A stretch of DNA of 64,000 bases from positions 197,022-261,021 of the forward strand of contig JBAZNA010000001.1 of assembly GCA_041649475.1 (NCBI GenBank), read 5' to 3'. A model generated the notes under the pieces. It had not been told where the DNA came from. It saw nothing but the letters and a program-made list of their open reading frames with translations, and searched no databases. A program made the translations under genes and the position numbers. Shown one piece after another: positions 10,150-57,026 of the stretch (positions within the stretch are counted from its first letter, which is position 1; each line of letters starts with the position of its first letter). The stretch is from Patescibacteria group bacterium. GTDB lineage: Bacteria > Patescibacteriota > Patescibacteriia > Magasanikbacterales > GWA2-37-8.

Positions 10150-10497
10150 ATGGGAATGCGCGCGAAGGACTGGGAGGCGGCCCAGGCCGTTTTCTTGAAA
10201 GAGGCCGGTGCCGACCCTGACCCCGACGATTCGTGGACCGTAGTTCGGTCGCCGAGTTTGCAGGAGCTTCTGCTGGCAAAGGAGCAGGAGTTCCCGGTTG
10301 AGCTCGAGCTCTCCGACGGCCGCAAGATGACCGTGTTCGTCGAGGATATCAAGGACCCCGACGCGCACGGCGAAGTGGAGGTGTACGTAATGTACGTCGC
10401 CAACGGCAACCGGCGCCGGCGGTACCTGCACTTCACCCCCGACGTCTACGAGCCCAGGGTCAACGTCTACCCCGAGCCCAAGGAATCCGTGGGCTGA
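10150..10497 (+). CDS. hypothetical protein, compositionally foreign GC-rich cassette A (115 aa)
   Basis: ATG preceded by a GAAGGAGAAAAAAG ribosome-binding site. Codon third positions are strongly G/C-biased, and the first 60 nt count about 63% GC against about 28-40% in neighbouring genes. Its own promoter is upstream and an intrinsic terminator is downstream. No recognisable domain. Confidence 0.6.
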   Translation: MGMRAKDWEAAQAVFLKEAGADPDPDDSWTVVRSPSLQELLLAKEQEFPVELELSDGRKMTVFVEDIKDPDAHGEVEVYVMYVANGNRRRRYLHFTPDVYEPRVNVYPEPKESVG

Positions 10498-15117: not shown

Positions 15118-15564
15118 TTATGGCCAGTTGAGTTCCGCCGGCATAGGCCAATCACTGGCGTCGAAACTCACGAATCCCGGCGTCCATTTGAACTTGGACG
15201 CTTCTCCCGGACCAGAAGTGCCCGTGAGCTCGTGAATTTTTTTAGAACTGAGCACCTTGAGCGGCGACATCTCTTTCGGCTCCGGGCTATCGATAGTGGC
15301 CTGGAGAGAATAACCAATCCCTTTCGTGGGATTGTAGAGGAGAAGTTGCGTGGCGACTTTTGCCCGTTTGTGCTCAAGGCAGTCCCACACCATCTTCAAG
15401 AGCGGCTTCTCCACTACGACCACAGGTTCATTATCCTCTGCAGTCAGAGCTGGGAATACACCCATCAGTCCGTGTTCGATCAGCAGTAGGTAACCGTACC
15501 GAAGCTGCCATCCGCTCAGATCCTTTTCGAAGATGCTTCCCAGCGCCGGTCCTTGTTTGCTCAT
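15118..15564 (-). CDS. hypothetical protein, GC-rich cassette B (148 aa)
   Basis: Start chosen at MSKQGPALG because it is preceded by TTGGAGGAAACC-ATG (GGAGG ribosome-binding site). The coding sequence is GC-rich, unlike the host. It lies 33 nt downstream of the 3' end of tRNA-Met on the same strand and is followed by a GC hairpin. No recognisable domain. Confidence 0.55.
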   Translation of the reverse strand: MSKQGPALGSIFEKDLSGWQLRYGYLLLIEHGLMGVFPALTAEDNEPVVVVEKPLLKMVWDCLEHKRAKVATQLLLYNPTKGIGYSLQATIDSPEPKEMSPLKVLSSKKIHELTGTSGPGEASKFKWTPGFVSFDASDWPMPAELNWP

Positions 15565-15597
15565 GGTTTCCTCCAAGATCGAGATCGTTTTCCCGAG

Positions 15598-17666: not shown

Positions 17667-17840
17667 ATTTGAAATTAGTGCATTAATAAATTTAGCAAGG
17701 AAAATTTTTGGCTGATATAATTATATCATTTTATGTTAAGAATAACAAAAATCGTCTACAAACCAAACTCCACCCATAAGGTGGAGTTTGTGATATAATA
17801 CAAATATCAATAATTTAATTTTTTATTCTTAACAAACACT

Positions 17841-18014
17841 ATGACCAAACATCAAGGCGTCTCAAGCGGAATCTACGGCCTGGCATTCATCGGCGCTCTT
17901 ATTTATTATATCCAACACGCCACCACATTCTGGATGGGCGTGCTGGGATTTTTGAAGGCCCTGGTTTGGCCGGCATTTTTGATTTATAAATTGTTGGAAT
18001 TTTTACACATGTAA
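17841..18014 (+). CDS. putative small membrane protein (57 aa, below the ORF-track cutoff)
   Basis: ATG at 17841 preceded by an extended -10 (tgaTATAAT at about 17786-17794). It encodes two predicted transmembrane helices (GIYGLAFIGALIYYI, WPAFLIYKLLEFL) and is followed by the 18021-18052 terminator. Confidence 0.3.
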   Translation: MTKHQGVSSGIYGLAFIGALIYYIQHATTFWMGVLGFLKALVWPAFLIYKLLEFLHM

Positions 18015-18020
18015 ATATAA

Positions 18021-18052
18021 AGATCCTGTTGCTTCGCAAGCAGGATCTCTTT
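18021..18052. terminator. bidirectional intrinsic terminator (gatcctgttgcttcgcaagcaggatc) with flanking T/A runs
   Basis: Imperfect 10-bp stem with a T-run on each strand. It ends the small + ORF and the minus-strand cassette C. Confidence 0.6.
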
Positions 18053-18073
18053 TTCTCCTTTCACATTATCCTT

Positions 18074-18400
18074 TCACAGGACCACTTCTTCGTAGTAGTC
18101 GGCCCGCTCGTGGCTAGCGTAGGGGCTTGATTTGGCATCCTTGAGCGCAGCTGCGGCGAACGGTTCGTCTATGGTGACCTCGGCAACGTTCTCGCACTTG
18201 GCGATCAACAGCTGACAACCATCACAGCCGAATCCGGTCACGGTTGCCAGAACCAGCGCCTCCTTGATCTTCGGTACCCGGCCCTCTTTGCGGATGGCTT
18301 CGGCCACATCGGCCGCGTTTTCTCCACCGCAGTCGGTCCAGAACTTGAAAACAACCTCATCACCCTTGCGCACACTAACGAGTCCGGTTTTTCCGTGCAT
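18074..18400 (-). CDS. hypothetical protein, GC-rich cassette C (108 aa, contains a GCDGC Cys pair)
   Basis: The ATG is preceded by a perfect AAGGAGG ribosome-binding site that overlaps the TAA stop of the upstream FAD oxidoreductase gene. The coding sequence is strongly GC-rich. It has no promoter of its own and ends at the terminator at 18021-18052. Confidence 0.55.
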   Translation of the reverse strand: MHGKTGLVSVRKGDEVVFKFWTDCGGENAADVAEAIRKEGRVPKIKEALVLATVTGFGCDGCQLLIAKCENVAEVTIDEPFAAAALKDAKSSPYASHERADYYEEVVL

Positions 18401-18411
18401 ATCACCCCTCC

Positions 18412-19713
18412 TTAGGTAACTTTACATGTTTTTTCATAAAGATCAAGAAAAATATCCTCCGGGTCAGTTTTCTTTTTAACCGCGTAATAATTATCTTTGT
18501 TCCAGGTTTTCCAAAAGTCATCTTCCGAATAATAGTTGGTGGAAATCAAGGTTTTGATGCCGCCAATAGCCATCAATTCTTCCTCAAACATTTTGTAATA
18601 GTTTTTGTCCGGCCGTTTTGGCAGTCCGTAGATGGCCAGATCTAAAAACAACTCGTCTTTCATTTTTTCAAAAAATTCTCCGGAAATCCATTCATAATGC
18701 CGGGCAATTTTATAAGGCACGCACCATAAAGGGAAAAAATTTATCTCTTTTTCATACCATTTCATAAAATTTTCACCTTCAGAAAACGGGATGAAGGTGT
18801 CAACCGTTACTGGTATCTTATCAGCCGGGATAACTTTGCGAAATTTTTGCACCAGTTTTAATAAGCTTGAAGAATTAATAAATTTACCAAAAAACAAACG
18901 TCCCAGAAATGATTTTGGGGTGACATTGGTCACACCTTTGTCATAGCGGAAAAAATAATCAATGGTTTTAAGATAATCTTCTTTTCGTATTTTTGTGCTT
19001 TTATAATATACCCTCATCCAGTCATAACTGTGGGTGTAGGGCGCCGTGTCAACAAAATTTCCTGTACTTAATACTAACTCGGTGGGGGAATGGATTATAC
19101 CATCCATAAAATCAACATCTTTTTTGGTGTAGTGATCCCAGATGGTAGCTTTATACTCCTTAATATCCACACATTTTTGATAAGTGACTTTAACAAACGG
19201 CTTGGCCGGAACCAATCTGAATTTGAGTTTAGCCAGAAGGCCCAAAGTGCCAAAGGTGCCGTGTATCATTTGAAATAATAAACTGTTGTCATTATCCGGA
19301 GAGCAGGTCAGAACCTCGCCTTGCGCGGTAATAATCTCATATTCCAGACAAGTGTCGTGGAAACCCCCATATTTGTATGACATTGATTCTAATGAACAGC
19401 CGGAAACCGCGCCACCGATGGTAATTGTTTTCAGTTCCGGTACAACAATCGGCACCAGGCCATATTTCAGAGTGGCTGTTGCCAAATCTACAAAAGTTAC
19501 GCCTGATTCGGCAACACAAGTCCGCGCATCAGGGTCAATACTGATAATTTCATTTAAATCACTGATGTCAATTTCTTCATTCCAGTATTTCTGTTCTTCA
19601 GGTTTGGGCACTACATGAGAAACCGCTTTCTTTTTAAATAATACCGGCTTGCCGTTTTTGTGCGCTTTCAGCTGTCCGGCAATTCTTTCAATTTTTTGTG
19701 CATGAGTTATCAT
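18412..19713 (-). CDS. FAD-binding oxidoreductase (FAD-linked oxidase, PCMH-type FAD-binding domain)
   Basis: 433 aa with an N-terminal FAD_binding_4-like region (IISIDPDARTCVAESGVTFVDL, TIGGAVSG) in host-like composition. Confidence 0.7.
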   Translation of the reverse strand: MITHAQKIERIAGQLKAHKNGKPVLFKKKAVSHVVPKPEEQKYWNEEIDISDLNEIISIDPDARTCVAESGVTFVDLATATLKYGLVPIVVPELKTITIGGAVSGCSLESMSYKYGGFHDTCLEYEIITAQGEVLTCSPDNDNSLLFQMIHGTFGTLGLLAKLKFRLVPAKPFVKVTYQKCVDIKEYKATIWDHYTKKDVDFMDGIIHSPTELVLSTGNFVDTAPYTHSYDWMRVYYKSTKIRKEDYLKTIDYFFRYDKGVTNVTPKSFLGRLFFGKFINSSSLLKLVQKFRKVIPADKIPVTVDTFIPFSEGENFMKWYEKEINFFPLWCVPYKIARHYEWISGEFFEKMKDELFLDLAIYGLPKRPDKNYYKMFEEELMAIGGIKTLISTNYYSEDDFWKTWNKDNYYAVKKKTDPEDIFLDLYEKTCKVT

Positions 19714-19878
19714 ATTTTTGATAACTTATCTTAGCAAAATTTTTCATTCTTAGCAAACTATAGGGAAGTTATCCACATCTCCTCAAAAAAAGTACGAAAT
19801 GTGCTATAATATACATAATTAATTAATTGCCGGGGTACTTGATTTTTTTAAGTATCCGCTGGCTATAGCAAGATACAT

Positions 19879-25906: not shown

Positions 25907-25928
25907 AACCTTCTTCTGGTCTTCCTCC

Positions 25929-26282
25929 TTAGGTGTCAACCGTCTCCACCGGAGGGTTGGGCACTGTTGGCCCCCAGAGAGGGACGAATTCCGTGCTCTG
26001 GAAGTTCTTGCGACACAACTCTTCAAGACCAGGGGTATCGCCATCGTAGATGACCCGGGAGGCCGTAATCACGGCCCGATCCTGCTTGGACCCGAACCCC
26101 ATCTGGGCGGCCAAGTTGTAGGCGTTCCTAGCCGAAGGGGCTTCACCGTTTTTTTGCACTTCCGCGCGAATTGCGTCAGCAAAACGCTTGGTGAGATTGC
26201 CGCCGCGGCCAACCACAACTTTCATCAAAACCACGTCGCCTCGGAAAACGATGACCATTCCCGGAACAGCAGTCGTGGACAT
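25929..26282 (-). CDS. hypothetical protein, GC-rich cassette D (117 aa)
   Basis: The ATG is preceded by AAGGAGG-attctcc. The coding sequence is GC-rich. It has its own consensus promoter and terminator. No recognisable domain. Confidence 0.55.
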   Translation of the reverse strand: MSTTAVPGMVIVFRGDVVLMKVVVGRGGNLTKRFADAIRAEVQKNGEAPSARNAYNLAAQMGFGSKQDRAVITASRVIYDGDTPGLEELCRKNFQSTEFVPLWGPTVPNPPVETVDT

Positions 26283-26318: not shown

Positions 26319-26347
26319 ATTTTAACATGGGAATTTGCCAGTGTCAA
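26319..26347 (-). promoter_or_regulatory. near-consensus sigma70 promoter TTGACA -17- TAAAAT for cassette D
   Basis: Reverse strand: ttgaca ctggcaaattcccatgt taaaat, lying between the hup terminator and the cassette D ribosome-binding site. Confidence 0.55.
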
Positions 26348-26361
26348 GATTCGTAAATAAC

Positions 26362-26390
26362 AAAAAATCCCCTTCGCAGGGGACTTTTGT
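26362..26390 (-). terminator. intrinsic terminator of hup (cccctgcgaagggg + T6)
   Basis: Reverse strand: gtcccctgcgaaggggattttttg, starting 20 nt after the hup stop codon. Confidence 0.65.
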
Positions 26391-26407
26391 TTTTGAAATG
26401 TTAGCTA

Positions 26408-26683
26408 TTATTTCAAAGCATCCTTTAAGGCCTTACCAGCTTTGAATTTTGGTACGGTCACGGCTGGGATTTGGATCTTTTGAGAAGGATTTTGTGGGTT
26501 CACACCCTGGCGGGCAGCGCGCTTTTTAGCGCTGAAAGCGCCAAAACCTGTCAAAACAACCTCTTCGCCTTTCTTTAACATGTCAGTAATTACCTCTACC
26601 ATTGAGTTTAGAGTATCTTCTGTCTGTCTCTTTGGTAAATTTAATTTTTCGGCTATAGCTTGAGCTAAATCTGCTTTATTCAT
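26408..26683 (-). CDS. hup: DNA-binding protein HU
   Basis: 91 aa with a typical HU/IHF sequence (MNKADLAQAIAEKLNLPKRQTEDTLNSMVEVITDML...GFGAF...RNPQT-like arm). Confidence 0.85.
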   Translation of the reverse strand: MNKADLAQAIAEKLNLPKRQTEDTLNSMVEVITDMLKKGEEVVLTGFGAFSAKKRAARQGVNPQNPSQKIQIPAVTVPKFKAGKALKDALK

Positions 26684-26804
26684 AGTGTCACCCCCTTTCT
26701 TTGGGAGATAAATAACATTAGTTTACGACAAGGTGTATTCTATCACATCTACACTATTTTGCCTATATTAAGCAAAACTAGTTGTCCACAGGTCAAAGAA
26801 CGCC

Positions 26805-28337
26805 TTATTTTGCGTATTCCACCACTCTGGTTTCACGAATTATGGTTACTCTGATTTCTCCAGGATACTGTAATTCTTGCTCAATTTTACGGGCAATGTC
26901 CTTGGCTAATTGGAAGGCAGAGTAATCATCAATTTCGTTTGGTTTAACGAAGATCCGTATTTCTCGTCCGGCTTGGATGGCATACACCTTTTCAATTCCC
27001 GGGAAGGAGGTGGCTGTTTTCTCCAGTTCTTCCAAGCGAGCGATGAATTGTTCATAACTGTCTTTGCGGGCGCCGATTCTGGCGCCGGAAATTGCATCCG
27101 CGGCTTTGGCAATGCTGGCAAAGATATTGAATGTTTTATCCAGGTGATGAGTCAAAGCTGTTTGGGCAATGTCTTCATCCATATTGAATTTTTTGAGGAT
27201 CATGTTGCCGATTTCCGGGTGAGAGCCCTGGGTTTCCTGATCAACTGATTTGCCGATATCATGAAAGAAGCCGCATTTTTTTGCTCTGGCGGCGTCCAGT
27301 CCAAGTTCGCTCGCAATCAAGGATGACAAATATCCCACTTCCATTGAATGGTTCAAGATGTTTTGTCCGTAACTGGTTCTGTATTTTAAGCGTCCGACAA
27401 TGCCGACCAGTTTTGGATCAATGCCGGTGATACCCATTTTATATAGGGCTTCTTCACCGGCTTTCTTTATATCAATGGCCAAATCCTGTTTGGCTTTTTC
27501 AATAAATTCTTCAATGCGGGCCGGCTGGATTCTGCCGTCGGCCATTAATTTTTCCAAAGCCAGTTTGGCAATTTGGCGTCTGATCGGGGAGAAGCCGGAA
27601 ACCATGATCGCGTCCGGAGTGTCGTCAATGATAAGTTCACAGCCGGTTAGTTTTTCAATGGTTTTAATGTTGCGGCCTTCTTTGCCGATGATGCGCCCCT
27701 TCATTTCCTCGCTGGGCAAGGACACGGTGGTTGAAGTGATTTCAGCCGCGTGCGAAGAGGCACAGCGCTGAATGGCTTCACCGATAATAGTGCGCGCCTT
27801 TTCTTCAAAGACCTCGCCGGATTCTTTTTCCAGTTTCATGATGCGGGCGGCCAAATCATTTTTACTTTCCTCTTCCACCCTAACTAAGAGTTCGGTCTTG
27901 GCTTCGTCTCTGGTCAGTCCGGCAATGCCCTGCAGTTTTTCAATTTCCTGATCGCGCATTTTTTCCAAATCCTGCTTGATTTGCTGGACTTTTTCCACTT
28001 TTTCCTGGAGTTTTTGCTGTTTGTCCTGGAATTCTAAAAGTTTCTGGTCAAACATATTTTCACGTTTTTCCAGACGCTGTTGCACGCTGTGCAATTCCTG
28101 GCGCAATTGTTTTTCTTCCCGTTTGGCTTCATCAATTATCTGCGCGCCTTTTTCTTTGGCTTGCAGGATGAATTCCTGCTGTTTGGTCTTGGCTTCGTTT
28201 AAAAGCTTTTCGGCTTTGGCTTCAATAGAGTTGGCCTGGGCCTGGGCTATTTTTTTACGTAAAATATACCCCAGCAAGAAGGCTATACCGACGCCGACCA
28301 GGGTGATGATCGCCCAGGTAAAATTAGTTAAATGCAT
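26805..28337 (-). CDS. rny: ribonuclease Y
   Basis: N-terminal transmembrane helix, a coiled-coil region, a KH domain (GRIIGKEGRNIKTIE) and an HD domain (FFHDIGK), 510 aa. Confidence 0.85.
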   Translation of the reverse strand: MHLTNFTWAIITLVGVGIAFLLGYILRKKIAQAQANSIEAKAEKLLNEAKTKQQEFILQAKEKGAQIIDEAKREEKQLRQELHSVQQRLEKRENMFDQKLLEFQDKQQKLQEKVEKVQQIKQDLEKMRDQEIEKLQGIAGLTRDEAKTELLVRVEEESKNDLAARIMKLEKESGEVFEEKARTIIGEAIQRCASSHAAEITSTTVSLPSEEMKGRIIGKEGRNIKTIEKLTGCELIIDDTPDAIMVSGFSPIRRQIAKLALEKLMADGRIQPARIEEFIEKAKQDLAIDIKKAGEEALYKMGITGIDPKLVGIVGRLKYRTSYGQNILNHSMEVGYLSSLIASELGLDAARAKKCGFFHDIGKSVDQETQGSHPEIGNMILKKFNMDEDIAQTALTHHLDKTFNIFASIAKAADAISGARIGARKDSYEQFIARLEELEKTATSFPGIEKVYAIQAGREIRIFVKPNEIDDYSAFQLAKDIARKIEQELQYPGEIRVTIIRETRVVEYAK

Positions 28338-28587
28338 AAAAACCTCAAGATTTTGAGGGCGTTATTCAATTGAAGAAGAGTAGCTTTAGATAAGCACAAA
28401 AACACCGGTCAAATCCATCTGATTTGCCCCGGAAAAGTGTTTGTTTAGGTGTTTATTTAGCATAAAGTTGACAATTCGGTTCGGTCTTAACTCTGCGAGT
28501 CAGCTTTCTTCTTAACTATTTAGAATAACGACTCAAAAATCAATTAATTATTTAGTGACTCTACTATAGCACTAAAGAGGTGTTTTG

Positions 28588-28797
28588 TCAATTGTTTCTG
28601 CCTTTGCCCCAGATTTTCCATTCCCAGACCCCTCTGTTTTCTTTTGGTTCTTCCGGCGAATTTTCACGTCTTTCTTCCTCAATGATAGGCATTTCCTCAT
28701 CATATATTCTTGGCCTCTCTTTTTCTCTCTCTTGCTCTTCGCGTCTCCTTATCTCTTCAATAATTAAATCATCCAGCGGACTAAGTTTTTTAGCCAT
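28588..28797 (-). CDS. putative small highly charged protein (69 aa)
   Basis: ORF starting 4 nt after the truB stop codon. It is extremely Glu/Arg-rich. No ribosome-binding site is evident, and it is supported only by its position. Confidence 0.3.
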   Translation of the reverse strand: MAKKLSPLDDLIIEEIRRREEQEREKERPRIYDEEMPIIEEERRENSPEEPKENRGVWEWKIWGKGRNN

Positions 28798-28801
28798 AAA
28801 A

Positions 28802-29440
28802 TTATGTTAAATTTATTGCGTTTTTTAAATAGTTTTCACCAATAGCCGTCCGTTCCAGTTCCTCGCAGTAAGCGCCAATGCCGAGTTTTTCGCCAATATC
28901 ATTGGCCAGGGAACGGATGTAGGTGCCTGTAGAGCATTTTACCTCAATTTTTAGAATTGGCCAAGAGTAGTCAAGCAGGTTGATTTCGTAAATTTCAATT
29001 TCGTTGGGCTGACGTTCAATTGTTTTGCCCTGTCTGGCCAGTTTATACAAACGCTGGCCGTTGATTTTTTTGGCTGAAAACATCGGCGGGGTTTGCAATT
29101 GTTTGCCGATAAAAGATTTTAAAATTGATGAGATGGTTTTTTTATCTGGAATTTTGGTTGGGTCTTTGGTTGGGTTTTGGTATTCGGAAATTTTGCCGGT
29201 CTTGTCATAAGTGTCAGAGGTTGCACCGAGTTTAATGGTGGCAATATATGTTTTCGGCAATTGTTTGAATTCATCCAATTTTTTAGTGCAGTCGCGGCCG
29301 ACGCCGACAATCAAAAGACCGGTCGCGAACGGATCAAGGGTGCCGGCATGACCAACTTTGATTTTTTTGTCGGTCCGGATATGCGCCACTACATCATGAC
29401 TGGTCCAGCCGGCGGGTTTGTTGATAAATAGAAATGGCAT
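28802..29440 (-). CDS. truB: tRNA pseudouridine(55) synthase TruB
   Basis: Catalytic-Asp motif region (GHAGTLDPFATGLLIVGVG), 212 aa. Confidence 0.85.
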   Translation of the reverse strand: MPFLFINKPAGWTSHDVVAHIRTDKKIKVGHAGTLDPFATGLLIVGVGRDCTKKLDEFKQLPKTYIATIKLGATSDTYDKTGKISEYQNPTKDPTKIPDKKTISSILKSFIGKQLQTPPMFSAKKINGQRLYKLARQGKTIERQPNEIEIYEINLLDYSWPILKIEVKCSTGTYIRSLANDIGEKLGIGAYCEELERTAIGENYLKNAINLT

Positions 29441-29580: not shown

Positions 29581-29922
29581 CTAGCCGGCGGCGGAAGCGG
29601 CGATGGGGGCGATCTTGGGCTGGATGTCGATCACGGGGATCGGCTCGGGCAGACCGTCGAAGCGCTGGCGGAGCCAGTCGATCTCGGGCTCCGAGGCCTC
29701 GCCCATGAAGATCTCGATGTAGAACGTCCCCCTGATGAGGCCCTCGTACTTCAGCTTGAAGCCGGGGATCTCGTCGTCGAAGTCGGCCTTGTGCGGCCTG
29801 TTGACGTACCTGTTGAAGTCGTTGAGCGAGCAGTACCTGACGCTGCCGTCCACGAACTGGATCCGTACGGCCCTTGTCTGCAAGGTCGTGTCCGGGAACG
29901 TCATCAGCTTCTGGATCGGCAT
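29581..29922 (-). CDS. hypothetical protein, GC-rich cassette E (113 aa from MPIQKL)
   Basis: Start chosen at the methionine preceded by AAGGAGagggag. The ORF-track ORF extends to 29994 with an Arg-rich low-complexity N-terminus that is probably untranslated leader. The coding sequence is GC-rich, and both its 5' leader (about 105 nt) and its 3' UTR (about 90 nt) are long and GC-rich. Confidence 0.5.
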   Translation of the reverse strand: MPIQKLMTFPDTTLQTRAVRIQFVDGSVRYCSLNDFNRYVNRPHKADFDDEIPGFKLKYEGLIRGTFYIEIFMGEASEPEIDWLRQRFDGLPEPIPVIDIQPKIAPIAASAAG

Positions 29923-30037
29923 CTCCCTCTCCTTGGGACTACGAGCTCGTGTGACCATCTTGTTATGCCTCCCTTGTTTCCGTGTTGGGCCCAATGCCCC
30001 TAAACTTGTTGGCCTTGTCCAGGCCGTGATGGGCTAA

Positions 30038-55838: not shown

Positions 55839-56504
55839 ATGGCGACCGCAAAACAGATTCCGTTTTTGATGGGAAGGTTGGTGGAGCATCAGTTTTACTT
55901 CTGTGCTTTGTCCACCGCAAGCGCCACGTGGGCGAGCCAAAACCCGAAAGACGCCATTGCCTTGTGCGTGGCGGCGATCGAGAATCGCCAAAAGGAGCGT
56001 CAGTCCGACCCGGCGCCTTCGCCACTCCTCACCTTGGTCGGTGCCGTCGTGATCTGGCTGGCCGTGAGGTTCGTTGCCAGTGAACACCTGGTGAAGAATA
56101 CCGAGAAGAACGCGCCGGTGAAGATTTCCTACATCTTCGATAAGGTCACCGTGTGGTTCCAGGGCAAGATCGAGGAGCGGGTCGAGGGCGAGATGGCTCT
56201 GTGCTGCCATACCCTGAACTCCGACTCGGACGATAACCTCATCATCAACCAGCTCGGCGGCGAGACCAAGGCCGAGACCGCCCTTGCCGAGGTCTTTGCC
56301 TGCTTGGAGAAGCAACCCAACGGCGAGGATGGTGCGCTACTCACTAACGGCCACGCGAACATCTTCTATGTTCGCAACACCGAAGGTGTGTTGTGCGTGA
56401 TCCAAGTGATCTGGCGCGGTGACGGTTGGACCTTCTACACCCGTTCGGTCGGTTCTCTGGACACATGTACCGAGGGCCGCCGGGTGTTCTCCCGCGCCGC
56501 ATAG
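55839..56504 (+). CDS. hypothetical protein, GC-rich cassette G (221 aa)
   Basis: GC-rich coding sequence with its own promoter and ribosome-binding site, followed by an intrinsic terminator. No recognisable domain. There is one hydrophobic segment (LLTLVGAVVIWLAV). Confidence 0.55.
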   Translation: MATAKQIPFLMGRLVEHQFYFCALSTASATWASQNPKDAIALCVAAIENRQKERQSDPAPSPLLTLVGAVVIWLAVRFVASEHLVKNTEKNAPVKISYIFDKVTVWFQGKIEERVEGEMALCCHTLNSDSDDNLIINQLGGETKAETALAEVFACLEKQPNGEDGALLTNGHANIFYVRNTEGVLCVIQVIWRGDGWTFYTRSVGSLDTCTEGRRVFSRAA

Positions 56505-56594: not shown

Positions 56595-56600
56595 TAACCC

Positions 56601-56994
56601 ATTCATAGCGGATGATCGAGCCGACTTAGTCGGCTAGGAAAGTCCGAACACCCAAGATGGCAGTGGGTAACGCCCACCGCTACGGTGGCAACGCCGTGGT
56701 TGGGAAAGTGGCACAGAGACAATTCTAACCCCGACAAGCTCGGGGTAAAAGGTGAAAAGTGTATGGGGGATTTGGTTCTCGAGACCAAAGCTACTATACT
56801 CGGCTGATAGCAATATCAGTTCGTGCTAAACCCTGCCTGGTGCAAGAGCAGCGTTTCGCGGCGCAAAACCGCGGTTCGAAAAGTTCGCTCGCTAGAACGC
56901 GTTAGCAATAACGCGTCCAGATAAATGATCGTCACCTCGCCCCATTTTTAAACAAAATGGTGCGGAGCACAAAATTCGGCTTATAGCTATGAAT
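56601..56994 (+). ncRNA. rnpB: RNase P RNA (bacterial type A)
   Basis: P1 pairing ttcatagc/gctatgaa. P2 gagccga...tcggctt and a P3 hairpin ccgacttagtcgg. P4 5' strand AGGAAAGTCCG and 3' strand ACAAAATTCGGCTTA. Conserved GGGTAACGCC, GTGGCACAGAGACAAT and GGTAAAAGGTGAAAAGTG blocks match the E. coli M1 RNA pattern. Confidence 0.8.
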
Positions 56995-56995
56995 A

Positions 56996-57026
56996 AAAAA
57001 GACGACCCGCAAGGGCCGTCTTTTAA
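56996..57026. terminator. bidirectional intrinsic terminator (gacgacccgcaagggccgtc) flanked by A6 and T4
   Basis: aaaaaagacgacccgcaagggccgtctttt. It ends rnpB (+) and the convergent 57040-58578 gene (-). Confidence 0.65.

What the first reader, a model, noticed from the sequence alone, without database searches (positions are those of the whole stretch)
18021..18414. Cassette C is translationally coupled behind a native FAD-binding oxidoreductase gene
Cassette C has no promoter of its own. A perfect AAGGAGG ribosome-binding site overlaps the TAA stop of the 433-aa FAD oxidoreductase (gttacc-TAA-ggaggggtgat-ATG). A 108-aa GC-rich ORF follows, containing a GCDGC cysteine pair. It then ends at a bidirectional terminator shared with a small convergent + ORF. 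The tight coupling to a redox enzyme and the Cys pair could indicate a redox partner, but the composition break argues that the pairing is recent or artificial.
Basis: partly seen in the sequence, partly recalled or inferred. Interest (0 to 1): 0.6.

Follow-up and report, generated by a model that had tools for sequence, protein, structure and literature searches.

The report
Foreign small gene behind flavoenzyme gene
A small GC-rich gene of foreign, probably phage-related, origin landed in the tail end of a flavoenzyme gene in an ultra-small bacterium and is now read as its second cistron; this looks like an accident of insertion, not a redox partnership.

Summary
A 108-aa ORF lies at 18074-18400 on the minus strand. 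It has 58% GC against 39% for its neighbour. An AAGGAGG ribosome-binding site overlaps the TAA stop of a 433-aa FAD-binding oxidoreductase, and a strong hairpin terminator follows.

The sequence is natural, not artificial. The protein is NCBI hypothetical protein WC526_01095 from a 963-kb Patescibacteria MAG contig. A related strain in independent assemblies has the same junction.

The unit RBS + ORF + terminator also occurs at a different locus, with its own promoter, in a third relative. Here it sits inside the 3' end of the oxidoreductase gene and has removed that enzyme's conserved C-terminal tail (TxRGLxx). None of 80 oxidoreductase homologues in other genomes has such a neighbour. The pairing is therefore lineage-specific.

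The protein is a divergent member of an uncurated ~110-aa family:
- At least 312 clusters match it, with no Pfam, NCBIfam or PHROG model.
- Members occur in large phages and scattered bacteria.
- A second copy lies at 25929-26282.

The 'GCDGC' belongs to a three-cysteine set that co-varies across the family and weakly resembles BFD-like [2Fe-2S] domains. The confident AF2 model has no significant structural match. Function is unknown; a small metal-binding accessory protein is my best guess. This is an ordinary horizontal acquisition of modest interest.

The parts
18074..18400 (-). 108-aa ORF (NCBI WC526_01095). It is a divergent member of an uncurated ~110-aa family and keeps the three-Cys set C24, C59, C62.
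   Evidence: ORF. Exact match in NCBI. Orthologs at 72% and 54% identity. Profile search found 312 clusters. dN/dS 0.27. AF2 pLDDT 84-86.
18405..18413 (-). Shine-Dalgarno AAGGAGGGG, 6 nt before the ATG and overlapping the TAA of the upstream gene. It belongs to the cassette, not to the host gene.
   Evidence: AGGAGGG is conserved in all three orthologous cassettes, including the stand-alone one in L004.
18049..18073 (-). Short 3' UTR with a conserved purine-rich SD-like motif (AAAGGAGAA) just before the hairpin.
   Evidence: DNA alignment of window, L001 and L004.
18021..18048 (.). Intrinsic terminator hairpin (stem GATCCTG...CAGGATC) with T/U-rich runs on both sides. It travels with the cassette and also ends the convergent 57-aa ORF.
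   Evidence: The stem motif is unique in the window (0 expected by chance). Among 110 loci it is found only after the P0003 orthologs.
18412..19713 (-). 433-aa VAO/PCMH-type FAD-binding oxidoreductase and first cistron. Its conserved C-terminal tail TxRGLxx is missing; the protein ends KTCKVT*.
   Evidence: Pfam. NCBIfam. PDB relatives are DprE1 and cytokinin dehydrogenase. C-terminus comparison. dN/dS 0.077.
19757..19786 (-). Candidate sigma-70-like promoter (TTGAGG-18-TATAGT) for the two-gene transcript.
   Evidence: Consensus scan only. This is inferred.
17841..18014 (+). Convergent 57-aa predicted membrane-protein ORF (WC526_01090) that ends 7 nt before the shared hairpin.
   Evidence: A promoter-like site lies at 17692-17721.
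25929..26282 (-). Paralog of 117 aa (WC526_01135), also GC-rich. It lacks the cysteines and has its own promoter (TTGACA 26342-26347, TAAAAT 26319-26324), AAGGAGG SD and terminator.
   Evidence: BLASTP E=1e-7. Family HMM E=1.6e-30. Sequence. Ortholog P0005 is in the same context.

Best explanation
A horizontally acquired gene cassette (its own Shine-Dalgarno, a 108-aa ORF, a short 3' UTR and an intrinsic terminator) inserted into the last few codons of a VAO-type FAD oxidoreductase gene.

The insertion removed the enzyme's conserved C-terminal tail and its native 3' end. Both genes are now presumably transcribed from the oxidoreductase promoter. Both end at the cassette's terminator. The small ORF is translated from its own strong SD as a second cistron.

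The protein is a divergent member of an uncharacterised ~110-aa family found in large phages and sporadically in bacteria. Its predicted fold is beta2-alpha2-beta-(loop)-alpha-beta. The three cysteines (one before helix 1, and CxxC after helix 2) most likely bind a metal or an Fe-S cluster, in a BFD-like arrangement lacking one ligand. I think it acts on its own as an accessory protein and not as a subunit of the oxidoreductase.

Shown: the gene is real and under purifying selection; it is foreign in composition; the cassette occupies different loci in relatives; the pairing is lineage-specific; the enzyme's tail is truncated.

Inferred: co-transcription, metal binding, and independence of function.
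For: Real, selected gene:
- The ORF is intact in three lineages plus a paralog.
- Substitutions by codon position are 16/19/38.
- dN/dS is 0.27.

Family:
- The profile search found 312 clusters at E<=1e-3, nearly all 105-125 aa.
- No curated model exists in Pfam, NCBIfam, PHROGs or PADLOC.
- Nine IMG/VR viral loci carry members, as does Tunturiibacter phage Tunturi_5 gp18.

Foreign origin:
- GC is 0.58 against 0.43 for the host.
- A similar excess appears in other small-genome hosts but not in phages or Vibrio.
- The window lineage shows excess GC>AT changes, 18 against 8, consistent with amelioration.

Cassette unit:
- Homology between window, L001 and L004 spans the SD, the ORF, the 3' UTR and the hairpin only.
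- The hairpin stem is unique to this gene.
- L004 is a syntenic relative that carries the gene elsewhere with its own promoter.

Accidental pairing:
- 0 of 80 oxidoreductase homologues have a family neighbour.
- 13 homologues inspected end ...KTC[KR]TxRGLxx* or a close variant of it (L056 ends KKCRPIF*, L045 KTCLASRGQGR*). The window ends KTCKVT* and L001 ends KTCKEG*.
- dS is equal for both genes.

Metal site:
- Across 248 domains, the three Cys positions are all present in 133, all absent in 60 and partly present in 55.
- 12 of 92 Cys-bearing members hit Pfam Fer2_BFD, best E=2.6e-6. The target scores E=0.062 over residues 24-66.
- The AF2 models place two helices between C24 and C59/C62.
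Against: - There are no expression data, so co-transcription and translation are inferred from sequence only.
- The target lacks the two most conserved family motifs: N-terminal TQG and C-terminal FNPRW. It may have a changed or reduced function.
- The BFD match is below Pfam's threshold (14 bits against 26), and only three of the four canonical Cys are present.
- The paralog and 60 other family domains have no Cys at all, so metal binding cannot be the family's core function.
- I did not find an empty site in a close relative, so insertion, as opposed to loss elsewhere, is inferred from the truncated tail and the different locus in L004.
- VAO-type flavoenzymes sometimes use Fe-S partners, so a secondary functional link cannot be excluded.
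Confidence: 0.6

Rival explanations
1. The small protein is a captured electron-transfer partner (a small Fe-S protein) of the FAD oxidoreductase, and the tight operon junction reflects functional coupling in this lineage.
For: - The Cys triad is conserved in the three orthologs.
- The central region weakly resembles a BFD-like [2Fe-2S] domain.
- The junction is kept in two strains separated by dS ~0.67, and is even tighter in L001, where the TGA is 1 nt from the ATG.
- From general knowledge, some VAO-family enzymes have Fe-S or cytochrome partners, for example GlcDEF.
Against: - 0 of 80 homologues of the enzyme have such a neighbour, and their downstream genes vary and are mostly convergent.
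- The ortholog in relative L004 stands alone with its own promoter, far from any such enzyme.
- The family occurs in phages and in unrelated contexts.
- The insertion removed a conserved part of the enzyme.
Confidence: 0.12
2. It is a decaying passenger: a foreign ORF carried along by read-through transcription with no function for the cell.
For: - It evolves about 3.4 times faster at non-synonymous sites than its neighbour.
- It has lost the family's TQG and FNPRW motifs.
- The composition is drifting toward AT in the window lineage.
Against: - dN/dS of 0.27 is well below 1 at dS 0.67, with no frameshift or stop in any of three lineages.
- The SD, the terminator and the Cys triad are all conserved.
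Confidence: 0.1
3. It is a mobile promoterless cassette moved by site-specific recombination (integron-like), and the hairpin is a recombination site and not merely a terminator.
For: - The SD-ORF-hairpin unit is found at two different loci in related genomes.
- The hairpin stem sequence is conserved with the gene.
- The window holds several other single-gene GC-rich islands.
Against: - The hairpin is a plain 12-14-bp stem with a T-run, typical of an intrinsic terminator.
- By my reading of the sequence it has no attC-like core sites. This was not a formal attC scan.
- L001 has a different hairpin sequence.
- The other islands have their own promoters and unrelated terminators.
- No cassette array or repeated sites were seen. 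The window was not screened for an integrase.
Confidence: 0.05
4. It is an assembly chimera or an artificial insert, or a structured RNA and not a protein-coding gene.
For: There is a sharp composition break at both ends.
Against: - The identical protein sits on a 963-kb contig held by NCBI, JGI, ENA and Logan.
- The same junction appears in three independent Logan assemblies of a related strain.
- Third-position substitutions are in excess and protein-level homology reaches >300 clusters.
- There is no Rfam hit.
Confidence: 0.02

Closest known systems
BFD-like [2Fe-2S]-binding domain (Pfam PF04324; bacterioferritin-associated ferredoxin, and the equivalent modules of NifU and NirB)
   Same: - One Cys precedes a helix pair and a CxxC follows it, with about 35 residues between.
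- Sub-threshold Pfam hits recur in 12 of 92 Cys-bearing family members.
- One member (P0214, with CGC...CxxC) is annotated as a (2Fe-2S)-binding protein.
   Different: - Only three Cys are present; the first Cys of the CxC pair is missing.
- The helix pair is embedded in a beta-sheet domain of ~108 aa.
- The target scores 14 bits against a 26-bit cut-off.
- A quarter of the family has no Cys at all.
- No PDB sequence or fold match to Bfd was found.
Phage 'morons': single extra genes with their own expression signals and atypical composition, inserted between resident genes. This concept comes from my own knowledge of the phage genomics literature.
   Same: - It is a one-gene unit with its own SD and terminator and a GC content unlike its surroundings.
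- The family has phage members.
- The other GC-rich islands in the window are complete promoter-ORF-terminator units.
   Different: - It sits in a bacterial chromosome with no prophage genes seen nearby.
- This copy has no promoter and was inserted into the end of a coding sequence.
Flavoenzyme plus small Fe-S subunit operons (for example glycolate oxidase GlcD/E/F), from general knowledge
   Same: A VAO-type FAD enzyme gene is followed closely by a Cys-containing small ORF.
   Different: There is no conserved co-occurrence (0 of 80 loci), and no homology to GlcF-type subunits.
Ntn-hydrolase (proteasome/HslV) and T-fold (dihydroneopterin aldolase, PTPS, QueF) beta-beta-alpha-alpha motifs
   Different: - Foldseek E is at least 0.25.
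- There is no sequence-profile match.
- The protein is half the size of an Ntn domain.

Membership tests
Uncurated ~110-aa family (consensus M[AG]TQG..VSV..G.V..K.VAGC.G..A...IR...GFGC..C.VV...YR.TF..P.FNPRW..GTAD..E.V) | Full-length sequence homology to family members | tested here: met
   A profile of the target, two orthologs and two paralogs retrieved 312 clusters (56 at E<=1e-10), matched over profile positions ~4-107. tblastn of the target against the P0017 locus gave 50% identity over 56 aa, E~1e-9.
Uncurated ~110-aa family | N-terminal T-Q-G motif (Thr nearly invariant in Cys-bearing members) | tested here: not met
   The target starts MHGKTGLVSV. Only the Gly aligns; Lys occupies the Thr column.
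Uncurated ~110-aa family | C-terminal F-N-P-R-W ... G-T-A-D motif | tested here: not met
   The target has SSPYASHERAD. Only P93 and the final A-D are kept.
Uncurated ~110-aa family | Co-varying three-Cys set (C...CxxC), present in about half of members | tested here: met
   C24, C59 and C62 occupy the three columns. Across 248 domains, all three are present in 133, none in 60 and some in 55.
BFD-like [2Fe-2S]-binding domain (PF04324) | Score above Pfam's gathering threshold | tested here: not met
   14.1 bits, E=0.062, against a 26-bit cut-off.
BFD-like [2Fe-2S]-binding domain (PF04324) | Four cysteine ligands, CxC ... CxxC | tested here: not met
   Only C24, C59 and C62 are present. There is no conserved fourth Cys or His column in 133 Cys-bearing domains.
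BFD-like [2Fe-2S]-binding domain (PF04324) | Binds a [2Fe-2S] cluster | not testable with these tools
   This needs purified protein with UV-vis, EPR and iron/sulfide analysis.
Functional two-subunit flavoenzyme operon | Conserved co-occurrence of the two genes across genomes | tested here: not met
   0 of 80 loci with oxidoreductase homologues carry a family member within +-3 kb. The pairing is seen only in the window and its close relative L001.
Functional two-subunit flavoenzyme operon | Physical interaction of the two proteins | not testable with these tools
   No multimer prediction is available here, and the two ORFs are in different frames, so no fused query could be submitted.
Integron gene cassette | attC recombination site with conserved core sites at the 3' end | tested here: not met
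   The 3' element is a plain GC-rich hairpin plus T-run. Its sequence differs in L001. I recognised no attC-like cores on reading it; no dedicated attC model was run.
Integron gene cassette | Integron integrase and a cassette array nearby | not tested
   The window was not systematically screened for tyrosine recombinases.
Ntn-hydrolase or T-fold superfamilies | Significant structural similarity | tested here: not met
   [not shown]

The most novel reading that the evidence does not exclude
The family is a previously unrecognised class of phage-borne small three-Cys metalloproteins with a fold that has no detectable relative. It spreads into ultra-small (CPR-type) genomes as self-contained SD-ORF-terminator cassettes. 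In this lineage one copy, captured behind a VAO-type flavoenzyme, has been co-opted as its electron acceptor.
Probability: 0.08. Interest if true: 0.65.

Novelty: new member of a known kind. Interest (0 to 1): 0.3.

Why it matters
The specific claim, a redox partner coupled to a flavoenzyme, is not supported. The arrangement is an ordinary case of a foreign gene landing in the end of a resident gene.

Three modest points remain of value.

1. The work defines an uncurated ~110-aa protein family. It has at least 312 clusters, phage members, conserved TQG and FNPRW motifs, an optional three-Cys site, and a confident model with no fold match. It deserves a family entry and a biochemical test.

2. 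It gives a clean example of how Patescibacteria gain single genes. The window holds several GC-rich one-gene islands, and related genomes carry different ones in the same slots.

3. It shows that a tight operon junction with a perfect SD can be a by-product of insertion. That is a useful caution for context-based function prediction.

Tried and rejected
Searches that found nothing:
- Pfam, NCBIfam, PHROGs and PADLOC on the target and on 51 family members gave no family.
- PDB sequence search with the protein and with the profile gave nothing.
- The target against INPHARED phages, and the Vibrio member against PLSDB plasmids, gave no match.
- A literature search for the Tunturiibacter phage found no paper.

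Tools that failed or were unavailable:
- The afdb50 library was not available.
- The search for related loci with the broad alignment A2 failed on both collections because no stretch was conserved enough. With A3 it failed on genome contigs, so family contexts in GTDB genomes were not surveyed. Contexts came from the look-up of encoding contigs instead.

Ideas considered and dropped:
- The other GC-rich islands of the window as relatives of the target: no similarity.
- Integron or superintegron context for the Vibrio member: the nearby repeat array consists of GGCTACGGGGTTAGCC palindromes next to ParA/ParD-like genes. It did not look like an attC array to me; this was read by eye, with no attC model run.
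- Domain fusions as functional clues: only tandem duplications, one Ppnp domain and one HD-like tail turned up, which is not consistent.
- An Ntn-hydrolase reading, based on the N-terminal Thr and the HslV-like 'VSVRK.G.VV' pattern: dropped because there is no profile match to any PDB proteasome or HslV sequence and the target lacks the Thr.
- An internal promoter: the best candidate I found by eye (TTGATC-16-TAAAGT just upstream of the SD) matches 8 of 12 positions. The sequence at the corresponding position in L001 does not contain it.
Full report
**1. What is there**

The minus strand carries a 433-aa ORF (18412..19713) followed by a 108-aa ORF (18074..18400). The junction reads gttacc-TAA-ggaggggtgat-ATG. 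AAGGAGG lies at 18407-18413, overlaps the TAA, and ends 6 nt before the ATG.

The small ORF has 58% GC (GC3 68%). The upstream gene has 39% and the window mean is 43.5%.

A hairpin at 18021-18048 follows the ORF. It was flagged as terminator-like. As minus-strand RNA it folds at -21.2 kcal/mol, z = -4.1, and it has T/U-rich runs on both sides. The convergent 57-aa ORF 17841..18014 ends 7 nt before it.

No sigma-70-like site was found on the minus strand within ~800 nt upstream of the small ORF. AAGGAGG is not over-represented in the window as a whole (8 against 6.3 expected), so its significance lies only in its position.

**2. It is natural and it is a gene**

The exact protein is 'hypothetical protein WC526_01095' of a Patescibacteria MAG, on a 963-kb contig held by NCBI, JGI, ENA and Logan. 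NCBI also annotates the 57-aa ORF, the oxidoreductase and a paralog.

A related strain, assembled independently three times (L001-L003), has the same arrangement. Its oxidoreductase is 90% identical and its small ORF 72% identical.

Between the two strains the small ORF differs at codon positions 1, 2 and 3 by 16, 19 and 38 substitutions. The divergence figures are:

| Gene | dN | dS | dN/dS |
|---|---|---|---|
| Small ORF | 0.178 | 0.670 | 0.27 |
| Oxidoreductase | 0.053 | 0.682 | 0.077 |

Equal dS means the two genes have been neighbours since the strains split. The small ORF is under purifying selection, though a looser one. Rfam finds nothing here. An artefact, a synthetic insert and an RNA gene are all excluded.

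**3. The cassette is a unit that has sat in more than one place**

A third ortholog (P0003, 54% identity) lies on contigs L004-L006. L004 is syntenic with window 26359-29440 (truB, RNase Y, HU), so it comes from a relative. There, however, the gene stands alone. It runs divergently from a CmpB-like gene, and it has its own TTGACA...-10 promoter.

A DNA alignment of the three loci shows homology from the AGGAGGG Shine-Dalgarno, through the ORF and a short 3' UTR with an AAGGAGAA motif, to the hairpin and T-run. Nothing aligns upstream of the SD. The stem GATCCTG...CAGGATC occurs once in the window (0 expected by chance). Among 110 fetched loci it occurs only behind the P0003 gene. The SD and the terminator therefore belong to the cassette.

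**4. The pairing with the oxidoreductase looks accidental**

The enzyme is a VAO/PCMH-type flavoprotein. It has an FAD_binding_4 domain, and its closest solved relatives are cytokinin dehydrogenase and DprE1.

It has 80 homologues of 43-74% identity in CPR bacteria, DPANN archaea, Firmicutes, delta-proteobacteria and spirochaetes. It is therefore itself widely exchanged.

- None of those 80 loci encodes a member of the small-protein family within 3 kb.
- In 21 inspected loci the downstream neighbour varies and is mostly convergent.
- The 13 homologues inspected end ...KTC[KR]-T-x-R-G-L-x-x-stop or a close variant of it (L056 ends KKCRPIF*, L045 KTCLASRGQGR*). The window protein ends KTCKVT-stop and the L001 protein ends KTCKEG-stop.
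- In L001 the last codons are the cassette's own SD, and the TGA is 1 nt from the ATG.

The cassette junction thus lies inside the 3' end of the enzyme's reading frame and has replaced a conserved tail. The 'translational coupling' is what remains when a foreign SD-ORF-terminator unit lands there. The enzyme stays under strong constraint (dN/dS 0.077), so it still works.

**5. What the protein is**

The word-indexed search found only the two orthologs. A second ORF in the window (25929..26282, 117 aa, also GC-rich) proved to be a paralog (BLASTP E=1e-7).

An exhaustive profile search with these five sequences found 312 clusters at E<=1e-3 and 56 at E<=1e-10. Nearly all are 105-125 aa and match end to end.

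The consensus is M[AG]TQG.VSV...G.V..K.VAGC.G..A...A..IR.......AY.LA...GFGC..C.VV...YR.TF..P.FNPRW..GTAD..E.V. No Pfam, NCBIfam, PHROG or PADLOC model covers it.

Members occur in several settings:
- Nine IMG/VR viral contigs of 66-463 kb carry one, some as tandem two-domain proteins.
- The cultured jumbo phage Tunturi_5 has one as gp18, among replication genes.
- Bacterial hosts include Campbellbacteria, Omnitrophica, Vibrio owensii and unnamed MAGs.
- In four of the nine viral loci the gene lies 0-3 kb from the large terminase. In others it lies by DnaB or clamp genes.
- In cellular genomes it is a solitary gene among orphans or variable genes, never next to an FAD oxidoreductase.

The target is a divergent member. 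It has lost the TQG and FNPRW motifs.

**6. The cysteines**

Three alignment columns carry Cys: C24, C59 and C62 of the target. Across 248 family domains, all three are Cys in 133, none in 60, and some in 55. Independence would predict about 66 and 11 for the first two classes. Relatedness inflates this contrast, but the pattern is strong. There is no conserved fourth Cys or His.

Twelve of 92 Cys-bearing members give sub-threshold hits to Pfam Fer2_BFD (best E=2.6e-6). The target gives E=0.062 over residues 24-66. One member with CGC...CxxC is annotated as a 2Fe-2S protein.

Two AF2 models (pLDDT 84 and 86, pTM 0.81 and 0.82) give this topology:
- beta 6-12
- beta 15-22
- helix 26-39
- helix 45-55
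- beta 63-67
- a disordered loop
- helix 80-85
- beta 102-107

C24 lies just before helix 1 and C59/C62 just after helix 2.

My reading is a small metal- or Fe-S-binding accessory protein with a BFD-like helix pair in a new scaffold. My confidence in that reading is about 0.4. Because the paralog and a quarter of the family lack the Cys, metal binding is not the family's core function.

**7. Foreign origin**

In small-genome hosts the family gene is 11-15 GC points above its locus:

| Locus | Gene GC | Host locus GC |
|---|---|---|
| Window | 0.58 | 0.43 |
| L019 | 0.61 | 0.47 |
| L107 | 0.59 | 0.48 |
| L109 | 0.50 | 0.36 |

In phages and Vibrio it matches its surroundings.

Using L004 as outgroup, the window lineage shows 18 GC>AT changes against 8 AT>GC (9 against 2 at third positions). 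L001 shows 13 against 15. The counts are small, but they fit slow amelioration of an imported gene. HGT of single genes and islands is documented for Patescibacteria (PMC12455944).

**8. Verdict**

This is a foreign, promoterless cassette behind the flavoenzyme gene, and its cysteines are probably functional. It is neither artificial nor recent. Comparative evidence speaks against a dedicated redox partnership.

The most likely mechanism has three steps. Transcription starts at the oxidoreductase promoter (candidate at 19757-19786). Translation of the small ORF starts independently at its own SD. Both genes terminate at the cassette's hairpin.

The protein's function remains untested. Interest is modest. 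The main product of this work is an uncurated, phage-linked small-protein family and a clear example of single-gene acquisition in a CPR genome.

Noticed in passing
window 25929-26282 (-): A second copy (paralog, 117 aa, WC526_01135) of the same family, also GC-rich. It has no cysteines and has its own promoter, AAGGAGG SD and terminator. It sits between the HU gene and a type IV pilin-like gene, and the related strain has the same arrangement (L007).
   Followed up: yes
window 10150-10497 (+), 29581-29994 (-), 55839-56504 (+): Three more GC-rich (57-60%) single-gene islands. The two read in detail (10150-10497 and 29581-29994) each have a sigma-70-like promoter, a strong SD and an intrinsic terminator; the flanks of the third (55839-56504) were not examined. 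All three ORFs lack any Pfam or PHROG hit. Two of them (10150, 55839) are NCBI-annotated hypothetical proteins whose 90%-identity cluster has a single member. They are unrelated to the target and to each other.
   Followed up: partly
window 18412-19713 (-) and loci L024-L103: The FAD oxidoreductase is 60-74% identical across Patescibacteria, DPANN archaea, Firmicutes, delta-proteobacteria and spirochaetes. This implies wide horizontal exchange of an uncharacterised, apparently stand-alone VAO-type enzyme. The copy here lacks the conserved C-terminal TxRGLxx tail.
   Followed up: partly
L004 3119-3838 (-) compared with window 25929-26282: The slot downstream of the HU gene holds the family paralog in the window. 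In the syntenic relative L004 it holds an unrelated GC-rich (62%) 239-aa orphan. This suggests a recurrent insertion site for foreign single genes.
   Followed up: partly
window 18049-18062 (-) and 25924-25930 (-); L001 1513-1525; L004 5815-5825: An SD-like purine-rich motif (AAGGAG[A/G]AA) sits between the stop codon and the terminator hairpin in all cassettes of this subfamily. Its purpose is unknown. It may be the relic of a downstream gene's ribosome-binding site.
   Followed up: no
L010 5971-7344, L016 6001-7026, P0007, P0071: Phage members occur as tandem two-domain proteins with long C-terminal extensions. One protein carries a Ppnp domain, and another a tail that, by my reading of the sequence, resembles the HD motif of ppGpp hydrolases (H..R...LLHDILED...KLADL.DN). 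Pfam did not confirm that tail at E<=0.01.
   Followed up: partly
L105 8500-11600 (Vibrio owensii JBNGUC010000006.1): A ~3-kb array of GGCTACGGGGTTAGCC palindromic repeats with 64/133-nt periodicity. It lies next to ParD-like and ParA-like genes and a run of orphan ORFs that includes a family member. This looks like part of a mobile element.
   Followed up: no
window 15150-15597: About 450 nt of 54% GC between tsaD and tRNA-Met. The 152-aa ORF with its listed start (15118..15576) is absent from the protein collection, and there is no Rfam hit. The content is unexplained.
   Followed up: no
window 56600-56999 (+): Bacterial RNase P RNA (class A, 175 bits) lies immediately downstream of the GC-rich orphan island 55839-56504.
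   Followed up: no
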